This document shows positions 2,717 to 62,330 of a stretch of DNA of 64,000 nucleotides, one piece after another. Numbering within the stretch: the stretch's first letter is position 1; every line of letters starts with the position of its first letter. A program made the translations under genes and the position numbers. The stretch spans positions 1-64,000 of the IMG/VR virus record IMGVR_UViG_3300047554_000536; one strand, written 5' to 3'. The notes beneath the pieces were generated by a model. It saw only the letters and a list, made by a program, of their open reading frames with translations. It was not told where the DNA came from and did not search any database. This stretch comes from a virus.

Positions 2717-3759
2717 TGATAAATAAGTACCAAGCATTAATAAACGAGCTCAAGTTACGACAGAATGAAAGTGAGGCCGTTCACAAAAACTCAAGAGTGT
2801 TGATTGTTGACGGCCTCAACACTTTCATTCGAGCCTATGCCGCAAGTCCAGTCACAAACACCAATGGTGAGCATGTAGGAGGAATCTCAGGATTTCTCCT
2901 AAGTGTAGGCCACGCTATCAAAGCAATCAACCCAACCCGATTGGTCGTTGTATTTGATGGTAAAGATGGCTCTGCTCGCAGGAAGTCGTTGTATCCTGAT
3001 TACAAAGGTAATCGTAAAGTTAAGATTCGATTGAACCGATCAGAGATAGTTGACAAAGAGGATAATCAGTTGCAGCAGTTAATGCGATTGACTGAGTACT
3101 TAGATGTCATGCCAGTAAAAACAATAGTTGTAGATCGTGCAGAAGCTGATGACGTTATTGCATATCTTTCTAATGACTATCTAGCCGACAAAGATTCCCA
3201 CGTATTCATTATGTCTTCCGATAAAGACTTTATGCAGCTGGTTGATGACCGGGTACATATTTGGAGTCCGACTAAGAAGCAGATGTTTTATCATGCGGAT
3301 GTTGTTGAGCAGTTTGGAATCATTCCAGAAAACTTTGCTTTGTATAGAGCTTTGACTGGAGATAACAGTGATAACATTCCAGGAGTGAATGGTGTTGGAA
3401 CGAAGACTTTGTTGGATAAGTTTCCTAAAGTAGCCGACACACCAATGACTGTGGATGAGTTTCTAGATTACACTAGAGAGCTGCAAGCTACCAACAAAGC
3501 AAAGGTCTATGAGAAGGTATTACAATCTGAAACGGAATTGCGACTCTACTTCGAGATTGTTCAGTTAGGTGTGAGTAACATCAATACGAGTAATAAGATG
3601 AAGATCATGGATATGATGGAACAGCCGGTGGATAGATTGGCTAAGATGAAATTTCATCAGATGCTTGTACTTGATGGTATGACTAACGCAATTAAGAGTG
3701 TTGAAATGTGGCTTCGCGAAACAACTTCGAAACTTGATCAATATTGTTTGCAAGATTAG
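2716..3759 (+). CDS. 5'-3' exonuclease / flap endonuclease (PolI N-terminal, T4 RNase H-like)
   Basis: LIVDGLN, YKGNR, EADDVIA, SSDKDFMQL, GDNSDNIPGVNGVGTKT (H3TH). Confidence 0.93.
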   Translation: MINKYQALINELKLRQNESEAVHKNSRVLIVDGLNTFIRAYAASPVTNTNGEHVGGISGFLLSVGHAIKAINPTRLVVVFDGKDGSARRKSLYPDYKGNRKVKIRLNRSEIVDKEDNQLQQLMRLTEYLDVMPVKTIVVDRAEADDVIAYLSNDYLADKDSHVFIMSSDKDFMQLVDDRVHIWSPTKKQMFYHADVVEQFGIIPENFALYRALTGDNSDNIPGVNGVGTKTLLDKFPKVADTPMTVDEFLDYTRELQATNKAKVYEKVLQSETELRLYFEIVQLGVSNINTSNKMKIMDMMEQPVDRLAKMKFHQMLVLDGMTNAIKSVEMWLRETTSKLDQYCLQD

Positions 3760-45286: not shown

Positions 45287-45337
45287 CTGTTGCCTAAACG
45301 AAAATAAGGTAGTATATTTAAAGAAATAAACAAACAT

Positions 45338-45490
45338 ATGGCAGGTAACTGGAAATTAAAAATTGAATGTCTTGATCAGTGGATGAAGGCAACAACTGGA
45401 AAAGGGTTGTTTCGTGAGAAGTCGGAAAAACCGAAGACTGAAGTGAAATTTGGTAAACCAAATAGAACGAAATTCAACAAACAACGTTAA
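45338..45490 (+). CDS. small basic protein, 50 aa (not in ORF track)
   Basis: Follows the promoter at 45288-45320; TAATG-coupled to the next ORF. Confidence 0.55.
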   Translation: MAGNWKLKIECLDQWMKATTGKGLFREKSEKPKTEVKFGKPNRTKFNKQR

Positions 45491-45690
45491 TGGCTAAAAA
45501 AAGGGAAGAACCGGTCTTTGAGAAGTTTACAAGGATTTATGAGGATGAGGATACTAAGACAGTTTGGACATATGATTACTCAGTCACAAAGACCGGTCCC
45601 GTTAGTGTAGAGATCACTTACAAAAATCTCCCAAAGGTAGAAAGAAAAAAGAAAAAAACAAAAATAACTAGAAAAACTGTTGCAAAATAG
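45490..45690 (+). CDS. small basic hypothetical protein
   Basis: 66 aa, Lys-rich tail. Confidence 0.6.
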   Translation: MAKKREEPVFEKFTRIYEDEDTKTVWTYDYSVTKTGPVSVEITYKNLPKVERKKKKTKITRKTVAK

Positions 45691-45712
45691 GATTTTCTAG
45701 AGTATATTTAAA
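45677..45712 (+). promoter_or_regulatory. Bacteroidota-type promoter of the leader/tRNA operon (a TATTTATA motif follows at 45732)
   Basis: ctgttgca-aaataggattttctagag-tatattta matches the recurrent consensus. Confidence 0.65.
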
Positions 45713-45744
45713 GAAAGAAAGAAAACGAGTATATTTATATAAGC

Positions 45745-45867
45745 ATGAAAGCAAACCTTAGACATATAGCATCTTGTAATTATCGCCTAGAGCAATCGAT
45801 TCCGGCAGGAATGGGCTTTACGTGGGTGGATAGCAAATGCAAGTCCGAGGTTCACAAACTCATGTAA
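45745..45867 (+). CDS. putative attenuator leader peptide containing all 20 amino acids (MKANLRHIASCNYRLEQSIPAGMGFTWVDSKCKSEVHKLM)
   Basis: Translated by hand; A-rich start context; all 20 residues occur by codon 29; codons 34-37 carry the antiterminator arm. Confidence 0.8.
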   Translation: MKANLRHIASCNYRLEQSIPAGMGFTWVDSKCKSEVHKLM

Positions 45868-45910
45868 GGTAATGTAAAACAAACAAACCTAAATATAGAT
45901 GAACCTCGGA
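45844..45910 (+). promoter_or_regulatory. antiterminator helix of the tRNA-operon attenuator
   Basis: tccgaggttca (45844-45854) is the exact reverse complement of tgaacctcgga (45900-45910), the terminator's 5' arm. Confidence 0.8.
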
Positions 45911-45936
45911 TCCAAAAGATACCGAGGTTTTTTTTT
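45902..45936 (+). terminator. intrinsic terminator (attenuator) upstream of the tRNA array
   Basis: aacctcgg-atc-caaaa-gat-a-ccgaggtt followed by 7 further T. Confidence 0.88.
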
Positions 45937-45943
45937 GGGTTAA

Positions 45944-45955
45944 TGTTCTTTGAAA
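45944..45955 (+). promoter_or_regulatory. boxA-like antitermination element
   Basis: tgttctttgaaa resembles rrn boxA (TGCTCTTTAACA; GTTCTTTGA variants), just before the first tRNA. Confidence 0.55.
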
Positions 45956-45971
45956 TGTTGGATACAAAAAC

Positions 45972-46043
45972 GTATTAGTAGCTCAGTGGTAGAGCAGGCG
46001 GCTGTTAACCGTCAGGTCGTAGGTTCGAATCCTTCCTAGTACG
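45972..46043 (+). tRNA. tRNA-Asn(GTT)
   Basis: Cloverleaf; ggcgg-ctGTTaa-ccgtc. Confidence 0.92.
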
Positions 46044-46049
46044 CAATAT

Positions 46050-46124
46050 TGCGGGATGCGTAGAAGTTGGTTATCTCGTCAGTCTCATAAGCTGAAGTCC
46101 CCGGTTCGAGTCCGGGTCCCGCAA
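46050..46124 (+). tRNA. tRNA-Met(CAT), initiator-like acceptor stem
   Basis: tgcggga/tcccgca; tcagt-ctCATaa-gctga; lacks the three consecutive G-C anticodon-stem pairs of canonical fMet. Confidence 0.8.
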
Positions 46125-46130
46125 CATAAT

Positions 46131-46204
46131 GATCTCGTAGCTCAGTTGGATAGAGCACCTCACTTTTAATGAGGGAGTCGATGGTTCGAGCCCATCCGGG
46201 ATCA
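46131..46204 (+). tRNA. tRNA-Lys(TTT)
   Basis: cctca-ctTTTaa-tgagg. Confidence 0.93.
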
Positions 46205-46210
46205 CTTAAT

Positions 46211-46281
46211 ACGTCTGTGGTGAAATGGTATCATGCCGGTCTCCAAAACCGTTGTTGAGGGTTCGAATCCTTCCAGTCGTG
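46211..46281 (+). tRNA. tRNA-Trp(CCA)
   Basis: cggt-ctCCAaa-accg. Confidence 0.9.
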
Positions 46282-46286
46282 CAATT

Positions 46287-46359
46287 GCCTTCGTAGCTCA
46301 ATTGGCAGAGCACCGCACTTGTAATGCGGGGGTTGTAGGTTCGACTCCTATCGAAGGCT
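46287..46359 (+). tRNA. tRNA-Thr(TGT)
   Basis: ccgca-ctTGTaa-tgcgg. Confidence 0.93.
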
Positions 46360-46366
46360 CAAAAAT

Positions 46367-46440
46367 ATTGGTATAGCTCAATTGGTCAGAGCATTCGCCT
46401 GATACGCGAAAGGTTTCAAGTTCGAGTCTTGATATCAATA
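46367..46440 (+). tRNA. tRNA-Ile(GAT)
   Basis: ttcgc-ctGATac-gcgaa. Confidence 0.9.
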
Positions 46441-46446
46441 CTACAA

Positions 46447-46519
46447 CTAGGTGTGGGAAAGTTGGTAATCCGCGGCATTTGGGATGCTGAGATCGCAGGT
46501 TCGAGTCCTGCCACTTAGA
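46447..46519 (+). tRNA. tRNA-Pro(TGG)
   Basis: cggca-ttTGGga-tgctg. Confidence 0.9.
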
Positions 46520-46524
46520 CAAAC

Positions 46525-46598
46525 GGTCCTTTAGCTCAGTTGGTTAGAGCAGCTCGCTCATAACGAGAAGGTCTCAGGTTCGAGCCCTGAATGGACCA
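46525..46598 (+). tRNA. tRNA(CAT), probably Ile2 (lysidine) rather than elongator Met
   Basis: ctcg-ctCATaa-cgag; 5' GGTCCTTTAGCTCAG resembles ileX-type tRNAs. Confidence 0.8.
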
Positions 46599-46600
46599 CA

Positions 46601-46720
46601 AAGGAAGTGCAAGAGAGTCCTTAATGCGCAAAGAAGATCCTTGCTGTACAGTGTGGAAAGACATACAAAATAGTTTTAACGGGGGCTCCGGTTCTATTCA
46701 AAAACGCGATTAGCCTTCAC
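46601..46720 (+). ncRNA. candidate structured RNA in tRNA spacer 1
   Basis: Helices gcaag/cttgc, tgta/taca, aatag/ctatt; possible pseudoknot taatgcgc/gcgatta. Confidence 0.4.
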
Positions 46721-46722
46721 CA

Positions 46723-46795
46723 CTTTCCTTAGCTCAGTTGGTAGAGCGTTGCCCTTACATGGCAAAAGTCGTTGGTTCGAGTCCAGCAGGGAAGA
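46723..46795 (+). tRNA. tRNA-Val(TAC)
   Basis: ttgcc-ctTACat-ggcaa. Confidence 0.92.
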
Positions 46796-46865
46796 CAAGG
46801 AGTTCTCGATCTCAAGTGCTGGTTAGTGAAACATCTAATCGATGAGCCCATCAAAATCAGAATAG

Positions 46866-46947
46866 GCCTGTATCGCATAGCGGCAATTGCAGCTGACTGT
46901 AAATCAGCTCCCTAACGGGTTCGGAGGTTCGAGTCCTTCTGCAGGCA
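46866..46947 (+). tRNA. tRNA-Tyr(GTA)
   Basis: gctga-ctGTAaa-tcagc, long variable arm. Confidence 0.92.
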
Positions 46948-46955
46948 CAAAAAAT

Positions 46956-47028
46956 GGACCGGTAGCTCAGTTGGTAGAGCGTTGGCCTGAAGAGCCAAGC
47001 GTCGGGGGTTCGAATCCCTCCCGGTCCA
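46956..47028 (+). tRNA. tRNA-Phe(GAA)
   Basis: ttggc-ctGAAga-gccaa. Confidence 0.93.
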
Positions 47029-47037
47029 CAATAATAA

Positions 47038-47110
47038 GCAGGTGTCGTATAATGGCTTATTACTCCAGTCTTCCAAACTGGAGATGAGAGTTCGATTCTC
47101 TCCACCTGCT
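47038..47110 (+). tRNA. tRNA-Gly(TCC)
   Basis: ccagt-ctTCCaa-actgg. Confidence 0.93.
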
Positions 47111-47113
47111 CAA

Positions 47114-47194
47114 AAGACAGATACCCGACGGGGAACGTAGAAGCGCCGGAATGAATTAGCACTGTAGGTCCGGGACGTGTGCAAAGTCTGTCTT
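47114..47194 (+). ncRNA. candidate structured RNA in tRNA spacer 3
   Basis: 9-bp closing stem aagacagat/gtctgtctt; inner ccgga/tccgg and acgt/acgt. Confidence 0.5.
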
Positions 47195-47199
47195 ATCTT

Positions 47200-47272
47200 G
47201 GGGTTGTAGCTCAACTGGCTGAGCGTTACATTTGCAATGTAAAGGATGAGGGTTCGAATCCCTTCAGCTCCA
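47200..47272 (+). tRNA. tRNA-Ala(TGC)
   Basis: ttaca-ttTGCaa-tgtaa; G3-U70 pair. Confidence 0.93.
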
Positions 47273-47277
47273 CAATC

Positions 47278-47349
47278 GGTCCATTGGTGTAATGGTTAAC
47301 ATGCGGCACTGTCTATGCTGCGCTACGAGTTCGATTCTCGTATGGACCG
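47278..47349 (+). tRNA. tRNA-Asp(GTC)
   Basis: cggca-ctGTCta-tgctg. Confidence 0.9.
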
Positions 47350-47355
47350 CTATCT

Positions 47356-47426
47356 TGTCCTGTAGTGAAATGGCATCACACGGCGTTTTGGCCGCTGGGT
47401 TAGAGGTTCGAATCCTCTCGGGACAA
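47356..47426 (+). tRNA. tRNA-Gln(TTG)
   Basis: cggcg-ttTTGgc-cgctg. Confidence 0.9.
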
Positions 47427-47431
47427 CAATT

Positions 47432-47517
47432 GGAAGAGTAACTGCAGCGGCCTGCAGCACTGTCTTGAAAACAGCTGGTACCTTGACCGGTATGGGGATC
47501 GACACCTCACTCTTCCG
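47432..47517 (+). tRNA. tRNA-Ser(TGA)
   Basis: ctgt-ctTGAaa-acag, long variable arm, atypical T-loop (atcgaca). Confidence 0.82.
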
Positions 47518-47524
47518 CTTATAT

Positions 47525-47598
47525 GGTGTCTATAGCTCAGTAGGTAGAGCAAAGGGTTGTGGTCCCTTGTGCCGTGAGTTCGATTCTCACTAGTCACC
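47525..47598 (+). tRNA. tRNA-His(GTG)
   Basis: aaggg-ttGTGgt-ccctt; encoded G-1 opposite C73. Confidence 0.9.
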
Positions 47599-47603
47599 CA
47601 ATT

Positions 47604-47687
47604 GGAGAGTAAAGCAGTCAGGGCACTGTCACCGCCTGCTAAGCGAGTGGTACTTTCGAGTATGAATTTCGATTATTCTGCTCTCCG
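47604..47687 (+). tRNA. tRNA-Ser(GCT)
   Basis: cgc-ctGCTaa-gcg, long variable arm, divergent D and T arms. Confidence 0.78.
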
Positions 47688-47692
47688 CAAAT

Positions 47693-47764
47693 GCCTCTAT
47701 CGTTCAATGGATAGGACACGGCCCTTCTAAGGCTGTTATTGGGGTTCGAGTCCCTATAGAGGTA
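47693..47764 (+). tRNA. tRNA-Arg(TCT)
   Basis: cggcc-ctTCTaa-ggctg. Confidence 0.92.
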
Positions 47765-47766
47765 CT

Positions 47767-47897
47767 AGGTGATAAAAAAGCGTAGGTTGGTAGACGTGGA
47801 GAGACGTGTCGCAAGGGTACACACTTAGCAGCTCTATTATGGTGTGTGAAGCACTGCTCAGCAGATCCCAGATTCCTGATAAAGCCAACCATCACCT
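47767..47897 (+). ncRNA. candidate structured RNA in tRNA spacer 4
   Basis: aggtgat/atcacct stacked on ggttgg/ccaacc; inner tacacac/gtgtgtg. Confidence 0.55.
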
Positions 47898-47902
47898 TTC
47901 AT

Positions 47903-47974
47903 GCTCTGTTAGTTCAACGGATAGAACACTTGACTACGGATCAAGAGATAGGAGTTCGAATCTCTTACGGAGTA
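47903..47974 (+). tRNA. tRNA-Arg(ACG)
   Basis: cttga-ctACGga-tcaag. Confidence 0.92.
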
Positions 47975-47981
47975 CTAATAA

Positions 47982-48051
47982 GGTCAGTTTAGTCGTGGAG
48001 GCTGGTAGGTCTGCAAAACCTATGGAGTTGGTTCGATTCCAACATTGACCT
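47982..48051 (+). tRNA. tRNA-Cys(GCA)
   Basis: taggt-ctGCAaa-accta; shortened D arm. Confidence 0.85.
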
Positions 48052-48067
48052 CAAAAAAACAAAAGCT

Positions 48068-48523
48068 ATGAAGACGTTTAGAAGTTTAACAAACAGAAAG
48101 GAAGTAGATTTAATTCCTTACGTATCCAACTTTATCAAAGAAAATGATGACACAGTATTGTATGTTGGTTGTGACTCTCAGAACGTCCGCGACAATACAA
48201 ACTACGCTGTCGTGATCGTTTTGTATAATCCTGGAAAGGGTGGGCACGTATTGTATTCAAGAACCACAATGCCAAAGATTGAAGACCGTTACACTAAGTT
48301 GTGGAATGAGGTTGAGTATTCAATCGAGGTAGCAGAGTACTTAACTAACAATGGTATCCAACGTCCAAGCTATATTGACTTAGACTTGAATCCAGATCCA
48401 AAATACAAAAGCAATCAAATTTTGAGAGCTGCGCTTGGATATGTGGAGAGTATGGGGTATATTGCTAGATGTAAACCTAATGCAATGGTAGCATCTCACG
48501 TAGCAGATGCCTTATGTAAATAA
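48068..48523 (+). CDS. RNase H-like YkuK (DUF458) family protein
   Basis: LYVGCDSQ, YAVVIVL..PGKGG, KLWNEVEYSIEVA, IDLDLN, KPNAMVASHVAD. Confidence 0.8.
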   Translation: MKTFRSLTNRKEVDLIPYVSNFIKENDDTVLYVGCDSQNVRDNTNYAVVIVLYNPGKGGHVLYSRTTMPKIEDRYTKLWNEVEYSIEVAEYLTNNGIQRPSYIDLDLNPDPKYKSNQILRAALGYVESMGYIARCKPNAMVASHVADALCK

Positions 48524-48534
48524 GTTATCAACAG

Positions 48535-48570
48535 CTGTTGTCTAGGTGAACAAAAGTTCCTATCTTTACT
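48535..48570 (+). promoter_or_regulatory. Bacteroidota-type promoter for the second tRNA block
   Basis: ctgttgtc...tatcttta. Confidence 0.6.
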
Positions 48571-48580
48571 GTATAGAAAT

Positions 48581-48658
48581 GCCCCTTTGGCGGAATTGGT
48601 AGACGCGCTAGACTTAGGATCTAGTCTTCGGGTGAGAGTTCGAGTCTCTCAGGGGGTA
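48581..48658 (+). tRNA. tRNA-Leu(TAG)
   Basis: ctaga-ctTAGga-tctag. Confidence 0.92.
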
Positions 48659-48663
48659 CAAAT

Positions 48664-48749
48664 GCTACTGTGGTGAAATAGGTAGACACGAGGGACTTAA
48701 AATCCCTTGGCCAGTGATGGTCGTGCCGGTTCGATTCCGGCCAGTAGTA
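48664..48749 (+). tRNA. tRNA-Leu(TAA)
   Basis: aggga-ctTAAaa-tccct, long variable arm. Confidence 0.93.
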
Positions 48750-48764
48750 CTAAATTAATTACAT

Positions 48765-48983
48765 ATGTGGAGTAAAGTGTTAAAGTTTGCAACCAATTTT
48801 TTATATTGGTTTTTAGGTTTCTCAATGATGGCATTGGGTGCAGAGCTTTTATTGATATGGCTCAAAGAAGATGGTTTTAGTATTACTGGTTTTATTCTAG
48901 GATTCATGGGTTACCTAATCCTACGACCAGCAGCTGAGTACTGGAAAGATCAACTCCTTAGTGTTTGGAAATCTAAAGAATAA
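48765..48983 (+). CDS. small membrane protein
   Basis: Two hydrophobic segments. Confidence 0.65.
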   Translation: MWSKVLKFATNFLYWFLGFSMMALGAELLLIWLKEDGFSITGFILGFMGYLILRPAAEYWKDQLLSVWKSKE

Positions 48984-49001
48984 GTTGTATATTCAAACAA
49001 T

Positions 49002-49073
49002 GGCCCGTTAGTCTATCGGTTAGGACGCATCCCTTTCACGGATGAGAGACGAGTTCGATTCTCGTACGGGCTA
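49002..49073 (+). tRNA. tRNA-Glu(TTC)
   Basis: catcc-ctTTCac-ggatg. Confidence 0.92.
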
Positions 49074-49088
49074 CTAAAATTAAAACAA

Positions 49089-49343
49089 ATGAAAAGGTTA
49101 CAAATCATCACATTGGCACTTTTAACAGCAGCTGCAACAATCACCTCTTGTACAGACAATCAACGTGCAAAGAATTGGGGTGGAACCGAAACAATCACAC
49201 TAAAACCAAACGAGCGAGTGCTTAACGTCACTTGGAAAGAGACTGAGATGTGGATTTGCACTCAGGATACTACTACCGGAGTTGTGTACTTCCGCGAGAA
49301 GTCTAACTGGGGTATGATGGAAGGTACGGTTATTTTGAAGTAA
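49089..49343 (+). CDS. lipoprotein
   Basis: Signal peptide with lipobox ITSC; CTDNQRAKNWGG. Confidence 0.75.
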   Translation: MKRLQIITLALLTAAATITSCTDNQRAKNWGGTETITLKPNERVLNVTWKETEMWICTQDTTTGVVYFREKSNWGMMEGTVILK

Positions 49344-49351
49344 CCGACCAT

Positions 49352-49459
49352 AGTCAGGTGGCGGAATTGGTAGACGCTGCGCTTTATATCAGGTGTATAA
49401 AGGTGAATCTTGGTCGAAAGATTGCAACAAGAATACAGGTTCAAATCCTGTCCTGACTA
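49352..49459 (+). ncRNA. tRNA-like RNA with Leu-type D arm and intact acceptor/T arms but a replaced anticodon arm
   Basis: agtcagg/cctgact, tggcggaattggtagacgc, acagg-ttcaaat-cctgt; centre holds two hairpins instead of an anticodon arm. Confidence 0.7.
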
Positions 49460-49503
49460 CAAATAATGCAGGTTCTTTGACATATTCAAAAAAAGGAAAC
49501 GAT

Positions 49504-60951: not shown

Positions 60952-61216
60952 AGAGCAAAAGCAAGAGCAAGCGGTTGTTGATCTTATCAACAAGATGTTT
61001 GAGATTGCTGGACATGAGGTTACTTACAATGACATCTTAGGGGTGGACAACTGGTTCCAACAGTACACAATGACTATGAAGCAGTCAGAGGAGTTTAGAG
61101 ATTGGGGTAAGAAGTATCTTGTTAAGACATTTCGAATGTCAGCCAAGAGAGCAGAGAACGAAATGATGTGGTTTAATTTACAATGGGGTTTAAAATATTC
61201 AGACTATGGAAAATAA
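60932..61216 (+). CDS. hypothetical protein
   Basis: Operon-packed ORF. Confidence 0.6.
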   Translation: MAKRLTREQKQEQAVVDLINKMFEIAGHEVTYNDILGVDNWFQQYTMTMKQSEEFRDWGKKYLVKTFRMSAKRAENEMMWFNLQWGLKYSDYGK

Positions 61217-62330
61217 TAATAGCGTATGTTACATTGGTACAATCGGAGAGATTCTACCAATAAGTGGAGCAGATAATATCGAGCTAGCGTTGGTCGGTGG
61301 CTGGCAAGCTATCATCAAGAAGGATGCATATGAGGTGAATGATTTAGTTATGATAGCTACTACAGATGCTATTATTCCACAAGCGCTTTCAGATGATATG
61401 AATGTCACTAGCTACCTACGCAAAGGTGGACGTGTGCGCACTGTTAAGTTGAGAGGTGTGTACTCAGAGTGCTTGATTATTCCAGTACAATACATTCCAT
61501 TCATGGATAACTACTACGATGGTAAGGACATGATGGACGTGATGGGTATCTACAAATACGAACCACCAGTACGTCAGGTACAATTATCATCAGGTCGTAA
61601 GATCCGATACCAAGATAATCCTAACTTCCATATCTACTACAAGTTTCCTAACCTAAAGAATGTAGCTGGAATGTTTACTGAGGGTGATTTAGTTGAGATT
61701 ACTAGAAAGATTCATGGTACAAATGCTCGCTATGGTATTGTGAAGAAGGCGAAGCTATCTTTGTGGGATAAGGTTAGAAAGTTCTTTACAAACAATCCAT
61801 GGATCGAGTATGAGTATGTGTACGGATCACATAACGTGGAGAAAGGTTCTGACTCTCAAGGATTCTACGATACTGATGTGTGGGCAACAATTGCAGAAAA
61901 GCATGATATTAAGAATGCATTGTGGGATTACGCTAAGACTCAAGGTCACAAAGCAATTGGTGAAGGTATTGTATTGTATGGAGAAATCTACGGAGCCGGT
62001 ATTCAAAAGAATTACGACTACGGACTGAGCCATACTGACTTCATGGGCTTTGATGTTAAGGTTAATGGTGAGTACGTCTCTACTTACAGAGCTTGGAAAA
62101 TTATTGAGCATCAGTTAAATTTGGAATATGTACCAATCTTACACTACGGTGAATGGTCTCAGGAGATCCAAGACAAGTACACATTCAACAACTATGTTGG
62201 AGATTCAAAGGTACCACACGAAGGTATTGTTATCAAATACTTCGACGGTTCACGTAACAAAGTAGCTAAGGTGATCAATCCAGATTACTTGATCTATGGA
62301 GAGAAGCATGACGTAGGAGATTCACACTAA
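61206..62330 (+). CDS. RNA ligase, DRB0094/Rnl5 family
   Basis: N-terminal OB domain (PISGADNIELA, VRTVKLRGVYSE), motif I RKIHGTN, GEIYG, FDV, HEGIVIK, KVINPDYL. Confidence 0.88.
   Translation: MENNNSVCYIGTIGEILPISGADNIELALVGGWQAIIKKDAYEVNDLVMIATTDAIIPQALSDDMNVTSYLRKGGRVRTVKLRGVYSECLIIPVQYIPFMDNYYDGKDMMDVMGIYKYEPPVRQVQLSSGRKIRYQDNPNFHIYYKFPNLKNVAGMFTEGDLVEITRKIHGTNARYGIVKKAKLSLWDKVRKFFTNNPWIEYEYVYGSHNVEKGSDSQGFYDTDVWATIAEKHDIKNALWDYAKTQGHKAIGEGIVLYGEIYGAGIQKNYDYGLSHTDFMGFDVKVNGEYVSTYRAWKIIEHQLNLEYVPILHYGEWSQEIQDKYTFNNYVGDSKVPHEGIVIKYFDGSRNKVAKVINPDYLIYGEKHDVGDSH

What the first reader, a model, noticed from the sequence alone, without database searches (positions are those of the whole stretch)
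45677..48051. Pan-amino-acid translational attenuator controlling a phage tRNA array (candidate new system)
Seen: promoter motifs (45677-45739) are followed by a 40-codon ORF, 45745-45867, missing from the ORF track: atg aaa gca aac ctt aga cat ata gca tct tgt aat tat cgc cta gag caa tcg att ccg gca gga atg ggc ttt acg tgg gtg gat agc aaa tgc aag tcc gag gtt cac aaa ctc atg taa. All 20 amino acids appear within the first 29 codons; with equal frequencies the coupon-collector expectation is about 72 draws. Codons 34-37 (tccgaggttca, 45844-45854) are the exact 11-nt reverse complement of the 5' arm (45900-45910) of an intrinsic terminator (45902-45936). That terminator sits directly before 21 tandem tRNAs. 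Established: trp/his/thr-type attenuators use a leader peptide rich in one amino acid and mutually exclusive antiterminator and terminator helices. Inference: a ribosome stalled at any of codons 1-30 leaves 45844-45854 free, the antiterminator forms and the tRNA array is transcribed. A ribosome running to the stop codon occludes that arm and transcription terminates. The diverse codons end about 10 nt before the arm, close to a ribosome's downstream footprint. This would be a general sensor of charged-tRNA shortage, for example from starvation or host anticodon-nuclease defence, that triggers phage tRNA supply. I know of no described attenuator of this kind, but could not search for one.
Basis: partly seen in the sequence, partly recalled or inferred. 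Interest (0 to 1): 0.95.

Follow-up and report, generated by a model that had tools for sequence, protein, structure and literature searches.

The report
Leader-peptide attenuator gating phage tRNA genes
A tiny translated test gene that uses all 20 amino acids, wired to a stop/go RNA hairpin, sits in front of this lake phage's tRNA genes and probably lets the phage make more tRNA whenever ribosomes read any of those codons slowly.

Summary
The 40-codon ORF 45745-45867 has all 20 amino acids in its first 29 codons. Its 3' end is an exact 11-nt complement of the 5' arm of the terminator at 45901-45936. That terminator precedes 21 tandem tRNA genes.

Loci from related uncultured freshwater and marine phages gave 38 distinct leaders of this build, in 22 clusters. 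Each is a short ATG ORF whose last codons can pair with the terminator's 5' arm, then a 20-36 nt spacer, the terminator, and tRNA genes.

Each leader's amino-acid set mirrors the tRNA genes downstream of it: 535 of 543 downstream tRNA kinds are present in their own leader. Leaders lack amino acids whose tRNA genes lie upstream or behind a different leader. Arg and Ser codon classes follow the isoacceptors. The window is the full-set case, 20 of 20.

I read it as a ribosome-mediated transcription attenuator giving feedback control of phage tRNA supply. Weak points: no translation or readthrough assay, a promoter after the terminator in some relatives, and a non-conserved 1:2 helix.

Six literature searches found no description. 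This scan has noted the same kind of element before on other DNA.

The parts
45680..45710 (+). Promoter-like site P1 (TTG, 20 nt, -7 box TATATTTA at 45703-45710), Bacteroidota type
   Evidence: Motif scan, coordinates. The same motif heads leaders and tRNA blocks in relatives. Consensus match only.
45730..45737 (+). Second -7 box (P2). A start about 6-8 nt downstream would give a leaderless or nearly leaderless leader mRNA.
   Evidence: Aligns with the -7 box in front of the homologous ORF in L012, L013 and L018. Coordinates. The start site is inferred.
45745..45867 (+). Leader ORF, 40 codons, all 20 amino acids in codons 1-29
   Evidence: Homologous ORFs in L001, L005, L012, L013, L018, L007 and L083. 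Its 20 amino-acid kinds equal those of the downstream tRNAs.
45753..45764 (+). Region 1 (codons 3-7), can pair with region 2 (-10.8 kcal/mol)
   Evidence: MFE fold, duplex. A similar early region 1 occurs in L001, L012, L106 and L191 but not family-wide.
45842..45855 (+). Region 2 (codons 33-37), antiterminator arm. Ends 12 nt before the end of the stop codon.
   Evidence: -21.1 kcal/mol with region 3, p = 0.006 against shuffles.
45899..45912 (+). Region 3, the terminator's 5' arm. Pairs with either region 2 or region 4.
45918..45936 (+). Region 4 (terminator 3' arm, 45918-45930) and the run of nine U (45928-45936)
   Evidence: RNA-library contigs of a close relative stop at 45932 in 2 of the 4 runs laid (weak hint).
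45944..45955 (+). boxA-like box between terminator and first tRNA. Candidate NusB/S10 antitermination site.
   Evidence: Conserved 20-34 nt before the first tRNA in 7 of 25 clusters by regex, with variants in three more by eye. Resembles the rrn BoxA described in PMC3177189. The assignment is inferred.
45972..48052 (+). 21 tandem tRNA genes (Asn to Cys, including two tRNA-Ser found only at a relaxed threshold) gated by the terminator
   Evidence: The only promoter-like motif between 45737 and 48538 lies inside tRNA-Ala.
48581..49074 (+). tRNA-Leu(tag), tRNA-Leu(taa) and tRNA-Glu behind the RNase H-like gene, preceded by a promoter-like motif at 48538-48568. They complete the set of 20 amino acids.

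Best explanation
This is a ribosome-mediated (leader-peptide) transcription attenuator that gates the phage's tRNA array and acts as a feedback sensor of decoding capacity.

Proposed steps:
1. Transcription from P1/P2 produces the 40-codon leader mRNA.
2. If a ribosome translates it without delay and reaches the stop codon, it covers region 2 (45842-45855). Regions 3 and 4 then form the terminator and RNA polymerase stops at 45928-45936.
3. If the ribosome is held up at any of codons 1-30 because the cognate charged tRNA is scarce, region 2 stays free. It pairs with region 3 (-21 against -15 kcal/mol for the terminator) and the polymerase reads on.
4. Readthrough passes a boxA-like site into the 21 tRNA genes.

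Because the leader holds at least one codon for every amino acid whose tRNA lies downstream, a shortage of any of them raises tRNA synthesis, and ample supply shuts it down.

Shown: the anatomy, its conservation, the complementarity, and the match between leaders and tRNA sets. Inferred: translation of the leader, stalling, regulated readthrough, and the physiological trigger (codon-usage mismatch with the host, starvation, or tRNA-cleaving defence).
For: 1. Anatomy in the window.

2. Homologous or analogous leaders in relatives. I found 65 leaders, 38 distinct peptides in 22 clusters after dropping 3 doubtful calls. They came from loci fetched through the neighbouring RNase H-like gene, not through the leader itself.

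3. Geometry. The stop-to-terminator spacer is 20-36 nt in 22 of 22 clusters. Region 2 ends 0-21 nt before the end of the stop codon in 21 of 22.

4. Antiterminator pairing.
- 9 of 15 hand-collected instances gave p < 0.05 against shuffles, compared with 0 of 5 terminators after ordinary genes.
- A leader's own upstream region pairs with its arm at a mean of -14.1 kcal/mol. Other leaders' upstream regions give -8.6 with the same arm. The own partner is best in 14 of 22 (biased by my filter of -9 kcal/mol or better).

5. ORF enrichment. 57 of 96 terminators before tRNAs that do not follow a long ORF have an ATG ORF of 18-65 codons ending 3-75 nt upstream. Shuffles predict 24.7.

6. Leaders mirror the tRNA sets.
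- Downstream tRNA amino-acid kinds missing from their own leader: 8 of 543 over 38 distinct leaders.
- Over all 25 clusters: 12 of 296 missing. Permuting the sets among leaders gives a mean of 54.7 and a minimum of 30 in 20,000 permutations. Fisher over clusters, window excluded, gives p = 5e-10 and 3e-8 under two nulls.
- Over 22 clusters: kinds with a downstream tRNA are present 265 and absent 3. Kinds whose tRNA lies only elsewhere in the array are present 51 and absent 39.
- Control ORFs that failed the pairing filter miss 34 of 122.
- Arrays with several leaders partition their sets: L172 11/11, 5/5 and 6/6; L031 10/10 and 8/8.
- L179 lacks exactly A, K, P, V and Y, whose tRNAs lie upstream. 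L083 lacks only L, L213 only G and L144 only T, for the same reason.

7. Isoacceptor level. 26 of 29 tRNA-Arg and 20 of 20 tRNA-Ser have a cognate codon in their leader.

8. Position. 259 of 268 matched kinds are encoded upstream of region 2.

9. RNA-library contigs cover the leader in 4 of the 4 runs laid. Two stop in the U run and two continue into tRNA-Asn (weak hint only).
Against: - No experiment. Translation of the leader and regulated readthrough are inferred. The RNA evidence is assembled contigs of a relative, which cannot prove transcript ends or exclude DNA in the library.
- In L001, L012, L013/L015 and L018 a promoter-like motif lies between the terminator and the first tRNA. There the array need not depend on readthrough. 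The window and L005 lack that motif.
- The 1:2 helix is not conserved in place or strength, -4.9 to -13.1 kcal/mol. The state without translation is therefore undefined.
- Most amino acids appear once in a leader, whereas classical attenuators use runs of regulatory codons. Sensitivity to mild shortage may be low (my knowledge; the model paper PMC1183508 was seen only as a search listing).
- Mismatches exist. Cys is missing from the leaders of L005, L012, L013 and L018 although tRNA-Cys is downstream; V, E, Q and R are each missing once. The window's tRNA-Leu(taa) has no cognate codon in the leader, and tRNA-Leu overall has a strict-wobble cognate codon in only 12 of 20 cases.
- 39 of 96 terminators before tRNAs have no ATG ORF.
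- Clusters are not phylogenetically independent, so the p-values are too small.
Confidence: 0.75

Rival explanations
1. It is a constitutive insulator. The terminator simply ends transcription of an upstream small gene. The tRNA array is driven by other promoters or by terminator leakiness, and the ORF and the complementarity have no regulatory role.
For: Five close relatives carry a promoter-like motif after the terminator. The terminator looks strong. 39 of 96 terminators before tRNAs lack an ATG ORF.
Against: It does not explain why the ORF's end is complementary to the terminator arm across clusters with unrelated sequences. It does not explain why leaders mirror the downstream tRNA sets. 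In the window the only promoter-like motif between 45737 and 48538 lies inside tRNA-Ala.
Confidence: 0.08
2. It is a general sensor of translation speed or activity, for example of ribosome availability, host shut-off or translation inhibitors. It uses the same RNA switch but has no specificity for the phage's tRNAs.
For: It has the same anatomy as the best explanation. One codon per amino acid suits a race between ribosome and polymerase better than sensing of a single amino acid. The 1:2 helix is weak.
Against: A non-specific sensor has no need to drop the amino acids whose tRNAs lie upstream or behind another leader (L172, L031, L179, L083, L213, L144). It also has no need to follow Arg and Ser isoacceptors.
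Confidence: 0.1
3. It is a gene for a functional small protein or a trans-acting small RNA, with its own promoter and terminator, that happens to lie in the tRNA array. T4's tRNA cluster also holds stable non-tRNA RNAs (recalled, from no call).
For: It has its own promoter and terminator. A semi-conserved N-terminal motif is shared by the window, L001, L012, L083, L106 and L189. The leader folds stably, z = -4.4. RNA-library contigs of the leader have higher word depth than those of neighbouring genes (a poor measure). Released attenuator RNAs can act in trans (PMC6614838; abstract seen in a search listing).
Against: No Pfam family was found and no Rfam family above threshold; the best was L10_leader at 24.6 bits against a cut-off of 44. 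Peptides of different clusters share composition rules, not sequence. Among L012, L013 and L018 I counted about 3 synonymous among 15 changed codons by hand, which argues against strong selection on the protein. A second, trans-acting role is not excluded.
Confidence: 0.05

Closest known systems
Leader-peptide transcription attenuators of amino-acid operons (trpL, hisL, leuL, pheL, thrL; multivalent ilv leaders)
   Same: A short translated ORF, mutually exclusive antiterminator and terminator helices, an intrinsic terminator before the regulated genes, and regulatory codons cognate to what the operon supplies. The logic is that ribosome stalling gives readthrough.
   Different: The regulated genes are tRNAs, not biosynthetic enzymes. 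The regulatory codons are not runs of one or a few amino acids but roughly one codon for each tRNA species downstream, up to all 20. The elements sit in phage genomes, often several per array. The 1:2 helix is not conserved. Knowledge of these classical systems is recalled; PMC3082878 and PMC1183508 were seen as search listings only.
T-box riboswitches
   Same: They sense the tRNA charging state and act through antiterminator/terminator switching.
   Different: T-boxes bind uncharged tRNA directly, without translation, and control synthetase or amino-acid genes. No T-box or other Rfam family reaches threshold here, and the element is an ORF.
Ribosome-stalling leader ORFs that sense translation inhibitors (erm, msrD, mef/mel and similar leaders)
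   Same: A leader ORF whose stalled ribosome remodels downstream RNA and relieves attenuation. It senses the state of translation rather than a metabolite.
   Different: Those respond to drug-bound ribosomes at specific peptide motifs and control resistance genes. Here the composition follows tRNA genes. PMC4335068 and PMC10314930 were seen as search listings only.
Leaderless polycysteine short ORFs acting as cysteine-responsive attenuators in mycobacteria (bioRxiv 10.1101/834739)
   Same: Short, possibly leaderless regulatory ORFs at the head of an operon whose codon content sets the signal.
   Different: A single amino acid, protein-coding targets and a different mechanism. Seen as a search listing and abstract start only.
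rrn boxA / Nus-factor antitermination
   Same: A boxA-like 12-mer lies between the terminator and the first tRNA in the window and several relatives. That fits a long untranslated transcript that needs protection from Rho.
   Different: It is only a sequence resemblance to the BoxA described in PMC3177189 (passages read). No boxB or boxC was looked for, binding was not tested, and the box is absent in many clusters.

Membership tests
Leader-peptide (ribosome-mediated) transcription attenuator | Short ORF with a start codon in the 5' leader of the regulated transcript | tested here: met
   ATG ORF 45745-45867. ORFs are enriched before tRNA-proximal terminators, 57 of 96 against 24.7 expected.
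Leader-peptide (ribosome-mediated) transcription attenuator | Intrinsic terminator between the leader ORF and the regulated genes | tested here: met
   Hairpin 45901-45930 at -15.0 kcal/mol plus nine U. tRNA-Asn starts 36 nt after the U run.
Leader-peptide (ribosome-mediated) transcription attenuator | An antiterminator helix that excludes the terminator and whose upstream arm is covered by a ribosome at the stop codon | tested here: met
   12-pair duplex at -21.1 kcal/mol, p = 0.006. The arm ends 12 nt before the end of the stop codon, and 0-21 nt before it in 21 of 22 clusters.
Leader-peptide (ribosome-mediated) transcription attenuator | Regulatory codons cognate to the product of the regulated genes | tested here: met
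   Met in a new form. The leaders contain 535 of 543 downstream tRNA amino-acid kinds, Arg and Ser codon classes follow the isoacceptors, and the window matches 20 of 20. There are no runs of one codon.
Leader-peptide (ribosome-mediated) transcription attenuator | A 1:2 pause or anti-antiterminator helix | tested here: inconclusive
   Present in the window (-10.8 kcal/mol) and some relatives. Place and strength vary from -4.9 to -13.1 kcal/mol.
Leader-peptide (ribosome-mediated) transcription attenuator | The leader is translated, and readthrough rises when the cognate charged tRNA is short | not testable with these tools
   The only data are RNA-library contigs that either stop in the U run or cross it. 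They are not a test.
T-box riboswitch | Match to the T-box covariance model (specifier loop, T-box sequence) | tested here: not met
   Rfam scan of 45300-49300 at E up to 1 gave no T-box. The only non-tRNA hit over the leader is L10_leader at 24.6 bits, below its cut-off of 44.
rrn-type boxA antitermination site | A boxA consensus 12-mer in the nascent RNA downstream of the promoter | tested here: inconclusive
   The box at 45944-45955 recurs before first tRNAs in relatives and resembles the BoxA of PMC3177189. Host boxA sequences were not compared, and NusB/S10 binding cannot be tested here.

The most novel reading that the evidence does not exclude
Phages that carry tRNA arrays run them under modular 'codon checklist' attenuators. 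Each block of tRNA genes is gated by a leader peptide written in the codons those very tRNAs read. The phage therefore measures, codon by codon, whether decoding is limiting, and transcribes only the tRNA block that is short. Limiting causes could be host codon-usage mismatch, starvation or tRNA-cleaving defence. This would be the first leader-peptide control of tRNA genes and a natural multi-input sensor of the whole decoding system.
Probability: 0.6. Interest if true: 0.9.

Novelty: new variant of a known kind. Interest (0 to 1): 0.85.

Why it matters
Why phages carry tRNA genes, and how they control them, is an open question. The proposals in the literature are compensation for codon usage and escape from tRNA-targeting defence.

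A leader that lists the codons of the tRNAs it gates would show that the phage measures decoding capacity directly and regulates tRNA supply by feedback. It extends leader-peptide attenuation from one-amino-acid sensors of biosynthetic operons to a sensor with up to 20 inputs that controls RNA genes.

It also makes the idea testable, because the rule predicts which single-tRNA depletions should open which block. It gives annotators a rule for finding small translated ORFs in tRNA arrays. And it offers a compact natural part for sensing translation stress.

Tried and rejected
- Reference phage collection, blastn and megablast: only tRNA-level matches, no relative of the leader.
- DNA pattern scan of viral contigs for the conserved 5' motif: 23 loci, of which only the 6 already known are true homologs. 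The other 17 are chance hits in coding DNA.
- nhmmer with the six-sequence alignment: beyond close relatives it found only terminator-level similarity. The more distant leaders were found by anatomy, not by sequence.
- MAFFT alignment A1: it misaligns the window's 3' half, so I ran no column-wise covariation count. I used duplex energies against shuffles and cross-pairing instead.
- Amino-acid diversity alone: apart from the window (p about 0.008 for the whole ORF) and L144 and L213, it is only mildly high in several leaders and ordinary in L031, L131, L149 and L042. I dropped 'pangram' as the family trait in favour of the tRNA-set match.
- Three automatic leader calls (L175:1596, L187:8018, L220:443) look spurious and were dropped from the later counts. 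They hold 9 of the 12 misses, where they are still included.
- L042's two elements (one without an ATG, one with a GTG start) were seen by eye but are in no statistic. My guessed coordinates for L042:10590 were wrong.
- GOLLD RNA: sought in the window and absent.
- Pfam on the leader peptide: nothing.
Parts of the array without RNA contig cover mean nothing.
- The search of earlier findings by place and by sequence: nothing.
That step was stopped and the count was redone from stored coordinates.

Full report
**What is in the window**

The record is a 72.5-kb fragment of an uncultured virus, with every ORF of 150 codons or more on the + strand. It encodes a UvsX-like recombinase, a DnaB helicase, ribonucleotide reductase, DNA polymerase, GroEL, thymidylate synthase and an RNA ligase.

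At 45745-45867 there is a 40-codon ATG ORF. All 20 amino acids occur in its first 29 codons. The chance of that is about 1.5e-4 under proteome, local-nucleotide or uniform nulls. None of the other 178 ATG ORFs of 30-60 codons in the window reaches 20 kinds within 40 residues.

Bases 45844-45854 are the exact reverse complement of 45900-45910. The duplex extends to 12 pairs at -21.1 kcal/mol. Shuffles of the upstream DNA average -10.9, p = 0.006.

Bases 45901-45930 form a -15.0 kcal/mol hairpin followed by nine U. tRNA-Asn starts at 45972.

Default ARAGORN finds 19 tRNAs up to 48052 and three more behind an RNase H-like gene. A relaxed threshold adds tRNA-Ser(tga) at 47432-47518 and tRNA-Ser(gct) at 47604-47688, both homologous to relatives' tRNA-Ser.

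Two Bacteroidota-type -7 boxes precede the ORF, and the second would give a nearly leaderless mRNA. The only promoter-like motif between 45737 and 48538 lies inside tRNA-Ala.

**Relatives**

I fetched related loci through the RNase H-like protein (PF04308, 48068-48523) that sits at the far end of the array. Collection was therefore blind to the leader.

Close relatives (L001, L005, L012, L013/L015, L018) carry a homologous 37-38-codon ORF between their first tRNA-Met and tRNA-Asn. L007, L008, L083 and L084 carry a 47-codon one before tRNA-Glu. In each, the ORF's end is complementary to the 5' arm of a following terminator, although the paired letters differ.

An automatic scan asked for four things:
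- a terminator hairpin with a T-rich tail;
- an ATG ORF of 18-65 codons ending 3-75 nt before the hairpin;
- a + strand tRNA within 260 nt;
- and then ORF-end/arm duplex energy of -9 kcal/mol or better.

It gave 65 leaders, which form 25 clusters at 50% identity with at least 3 tRNAs downstream. Three clusters look spurious and were dropped from later counts. That leaves 22 clusters and 38 distinct peptides.

**Is the switch real?**

- The spacer from stop codon to terminator is 20-36 nt in 22 of 22 clusters.
- The pairing arm ends 0-21 nt before the end of the stop codon in 21 of 22. A terminating ribosome would cover it there.
- In 15 hand-collected instances, pairing beat shuffles at p < 0.05 in 9. 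In 5 control terminators after ordinary genes it did so in none.
- A leader's own upstream region pairs with its arm at a mean of -14.1 kcal/mol, against -8.6 for other leaders' upstream regions. It is the best partner in 14 of 22. My energy filter favours this result.
- Of 96 non-redundant terminators before tRNAs that do not follow a long ORF, 57 have such an ORF. Shuffles predict 24.7, and 39 have none.
- A region 1 that can pair with region 2 exists in the window (45753-45764, -10.8 kcal/mol) and in some relatives. It is not conserved in place or strength.

**The decisive pattern: leaders mirror their tRNAs**

For each leader I listed the tRNA genes downstream, up to the next leader or a 2.5-kb gap.

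- Over the 25 clusters, only 12 of 296 downstream amino-acid kinds are missing from their own leader, and 9 of those 12 come from the three doubtful calls. Permuting the sets among leaders gives a mean of 54.7 and never fewer than 30 in 20,000 trials.
- Fisher's combination over clusters, window excluded, gives p = 5e-10 (proteome null) and 3e-8 (pooled leader composition).
- Over 38 distinct leaders, 8 of 543 are missing. Control small ORFs that failed the pairing filter miss 34 of 122.
- Kinds with a downstream tRNA are present 265 times and absent 3. Kinds whose tRNA lies only elsewhere in the same array are present 51 times and absent 39.
- The number of kinds in a leader follows the number of tRNA kinds behind it (Spearman 0.76).

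The clearest cases are the split arrays:
- L172 has three leaders, matching 11/11, 5/5 and 6/6 of their own blocks.
- L031 has two leaders, matching 10/10 and 8/8. Each lacks amino acids served by the other's block.
- L179's leader lacks exactly A, K, P, V and Y, whose tRNAs lie upstream of it.
- L083 lacks only Leu, L213 only Gly and the L144 group only Thr, for the same reason.

At the isoacceptor level, 26 of 29 tRNA-Arg and 20 of 20 tRNA-Ser have a cognate codon in their leader. For tRNA-Leu it is 12 of 20 under strict wobble.

Of 268 matched kinds, 259 are encoded upstream of the pairing arm and 245 at least 10 nt upstream.

**Mechanism**

The best reading is classical ribosome-mediated attenuation turned to a new target. 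A ribosome that reaches the stop codon masks region 2, the terminator forms, and transcription ends at 45928-45936. A ribosome delayed at any earlier codon leaves region 2 free. The stronger 2:3 helix then forms and the polymerase enters the tRNA genes.

Since the leader lists the codons served by the downstream tRNAs, the loop is a feedback on tRNA supply. All steps after the anatomy are inferred.

Between the terminator and tRNA-Asn lies a 12-mer (45944-45955) that recurs before first tRNAs in relatives. It resembles the rrn BoxA described in PMC3177189 (passages read). It may make readthrough complexes resistant to termination along the untranslated array. This too is inferred.

**Expression**

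Four metatranscriptome runs from four studies hold contigs of a close relative that cover the leader. Two contigs stop at 45932, in the U run. Two run on into tRNA-Asn, to 46036 and 46011. The relative lacks 45333-45721.

Contigs cannot prove transcript ends, and DNA may be present in such libraries. This is a weak hint that both terminated and readthrough forms exist.

**Against**

- Some close relatives have a promoter-like motif after the terminator.
- One codon per amino acid is unlike the codon runs of known attenuators.
- Cys is absent from four leaders whose arrays hold tRNA-Cys.
- The window's tRNA-Leu(taa) has no cognate leader codon.
- Clusters share ancestry, so the p-values overstate independence.

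**Known or new**

No Rfam family fits and no Pfam family fits.

Six full-text searches found no account of leader-peptide control of tRNA genes or phage tRNA arrays. The library lacks most subscription journals.

Notes of this scan report the same kind of element on other DNA: 77 notes in at least 71 genomes. I read them after reaching the same conclusion independently. They agree with it but are not independent evidence.

I rate it a new variant of a known kind: a known mechanism with a new target and a new sensor design.

Noticed in passing
L007:2779-3203; L001:7394-7817: GOLLD RNA (RF02032; 272 and 265 bits) lies inside or beside the tRNA arrays of relatives. In L007 it sits between tRNA-Leu and tRNA-Met, upstream of the leader. 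The window itself has none.
   Followed up: partly
window 46600-46722, 47112-47199, 47766-47902: Three gaps inside the tRNA array fold stably (-26.5, -24.0 and -36.2 kcal/mol) and match no Rfam family. By eye, 47112-47199 resembles the gap before tRNA-Asp in L018/L085, and 47766-47902 resembles L024 6060-6225. They are candidate conserved non-tRNA RNAs.
   Followed up: partly
window 47432-47518 and 47604-47688: Two tRNA-Ser genes (tga, gct) are missed by default ARAGORN and by the Rfam tRNA model. They are found at a relaxed threshold and are homologous to relatives' tRNA-Ser.
   Followed up: yes
window 49352-49459 and 49473-49484: The Rfam tRNA hit here is 108 nt long (39.7 bits), and relaxed ARAGORN calls tRNA-Leu(aag) at 49387-49460. 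It may be a tRNA with an insertion. A second boxA-like box follows directly at 49473.
   Followed up: no
L001 about 3190-3290; L005 about 3050-3170 (upstream of the array promoter): A tRNA-like element with an acceptor-like stem and a canonical T arm, but about 95-120 nt long, is not called by ARAGORN. It may be a tRNA with an intron or a long extra arm.
   Followed up: no
window 61206-62327: An RNA ligase gene (phrog_968, E = 4e-59) in the same phage. In T4 such ligases repair cleaved tRNA (recalled), which fits a phage invested in tRNA supply.
   Followed up: no
window 48068-48523: An RNase H-like protein (PF04308, E = 8e-27) is embedded at the 3' end of the tRNA array. It holds that place in well over a hundred related contigs. 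It might process the array transcript.
   Followed up: partly
window 45333-45721: A close relative seen in RNA-library contigs lacks these 389 bases, which hold two small ORFs and promoter P1. It has 10 other letters in their place, so the leader there keeps only the P2 box.
   Followed up: no
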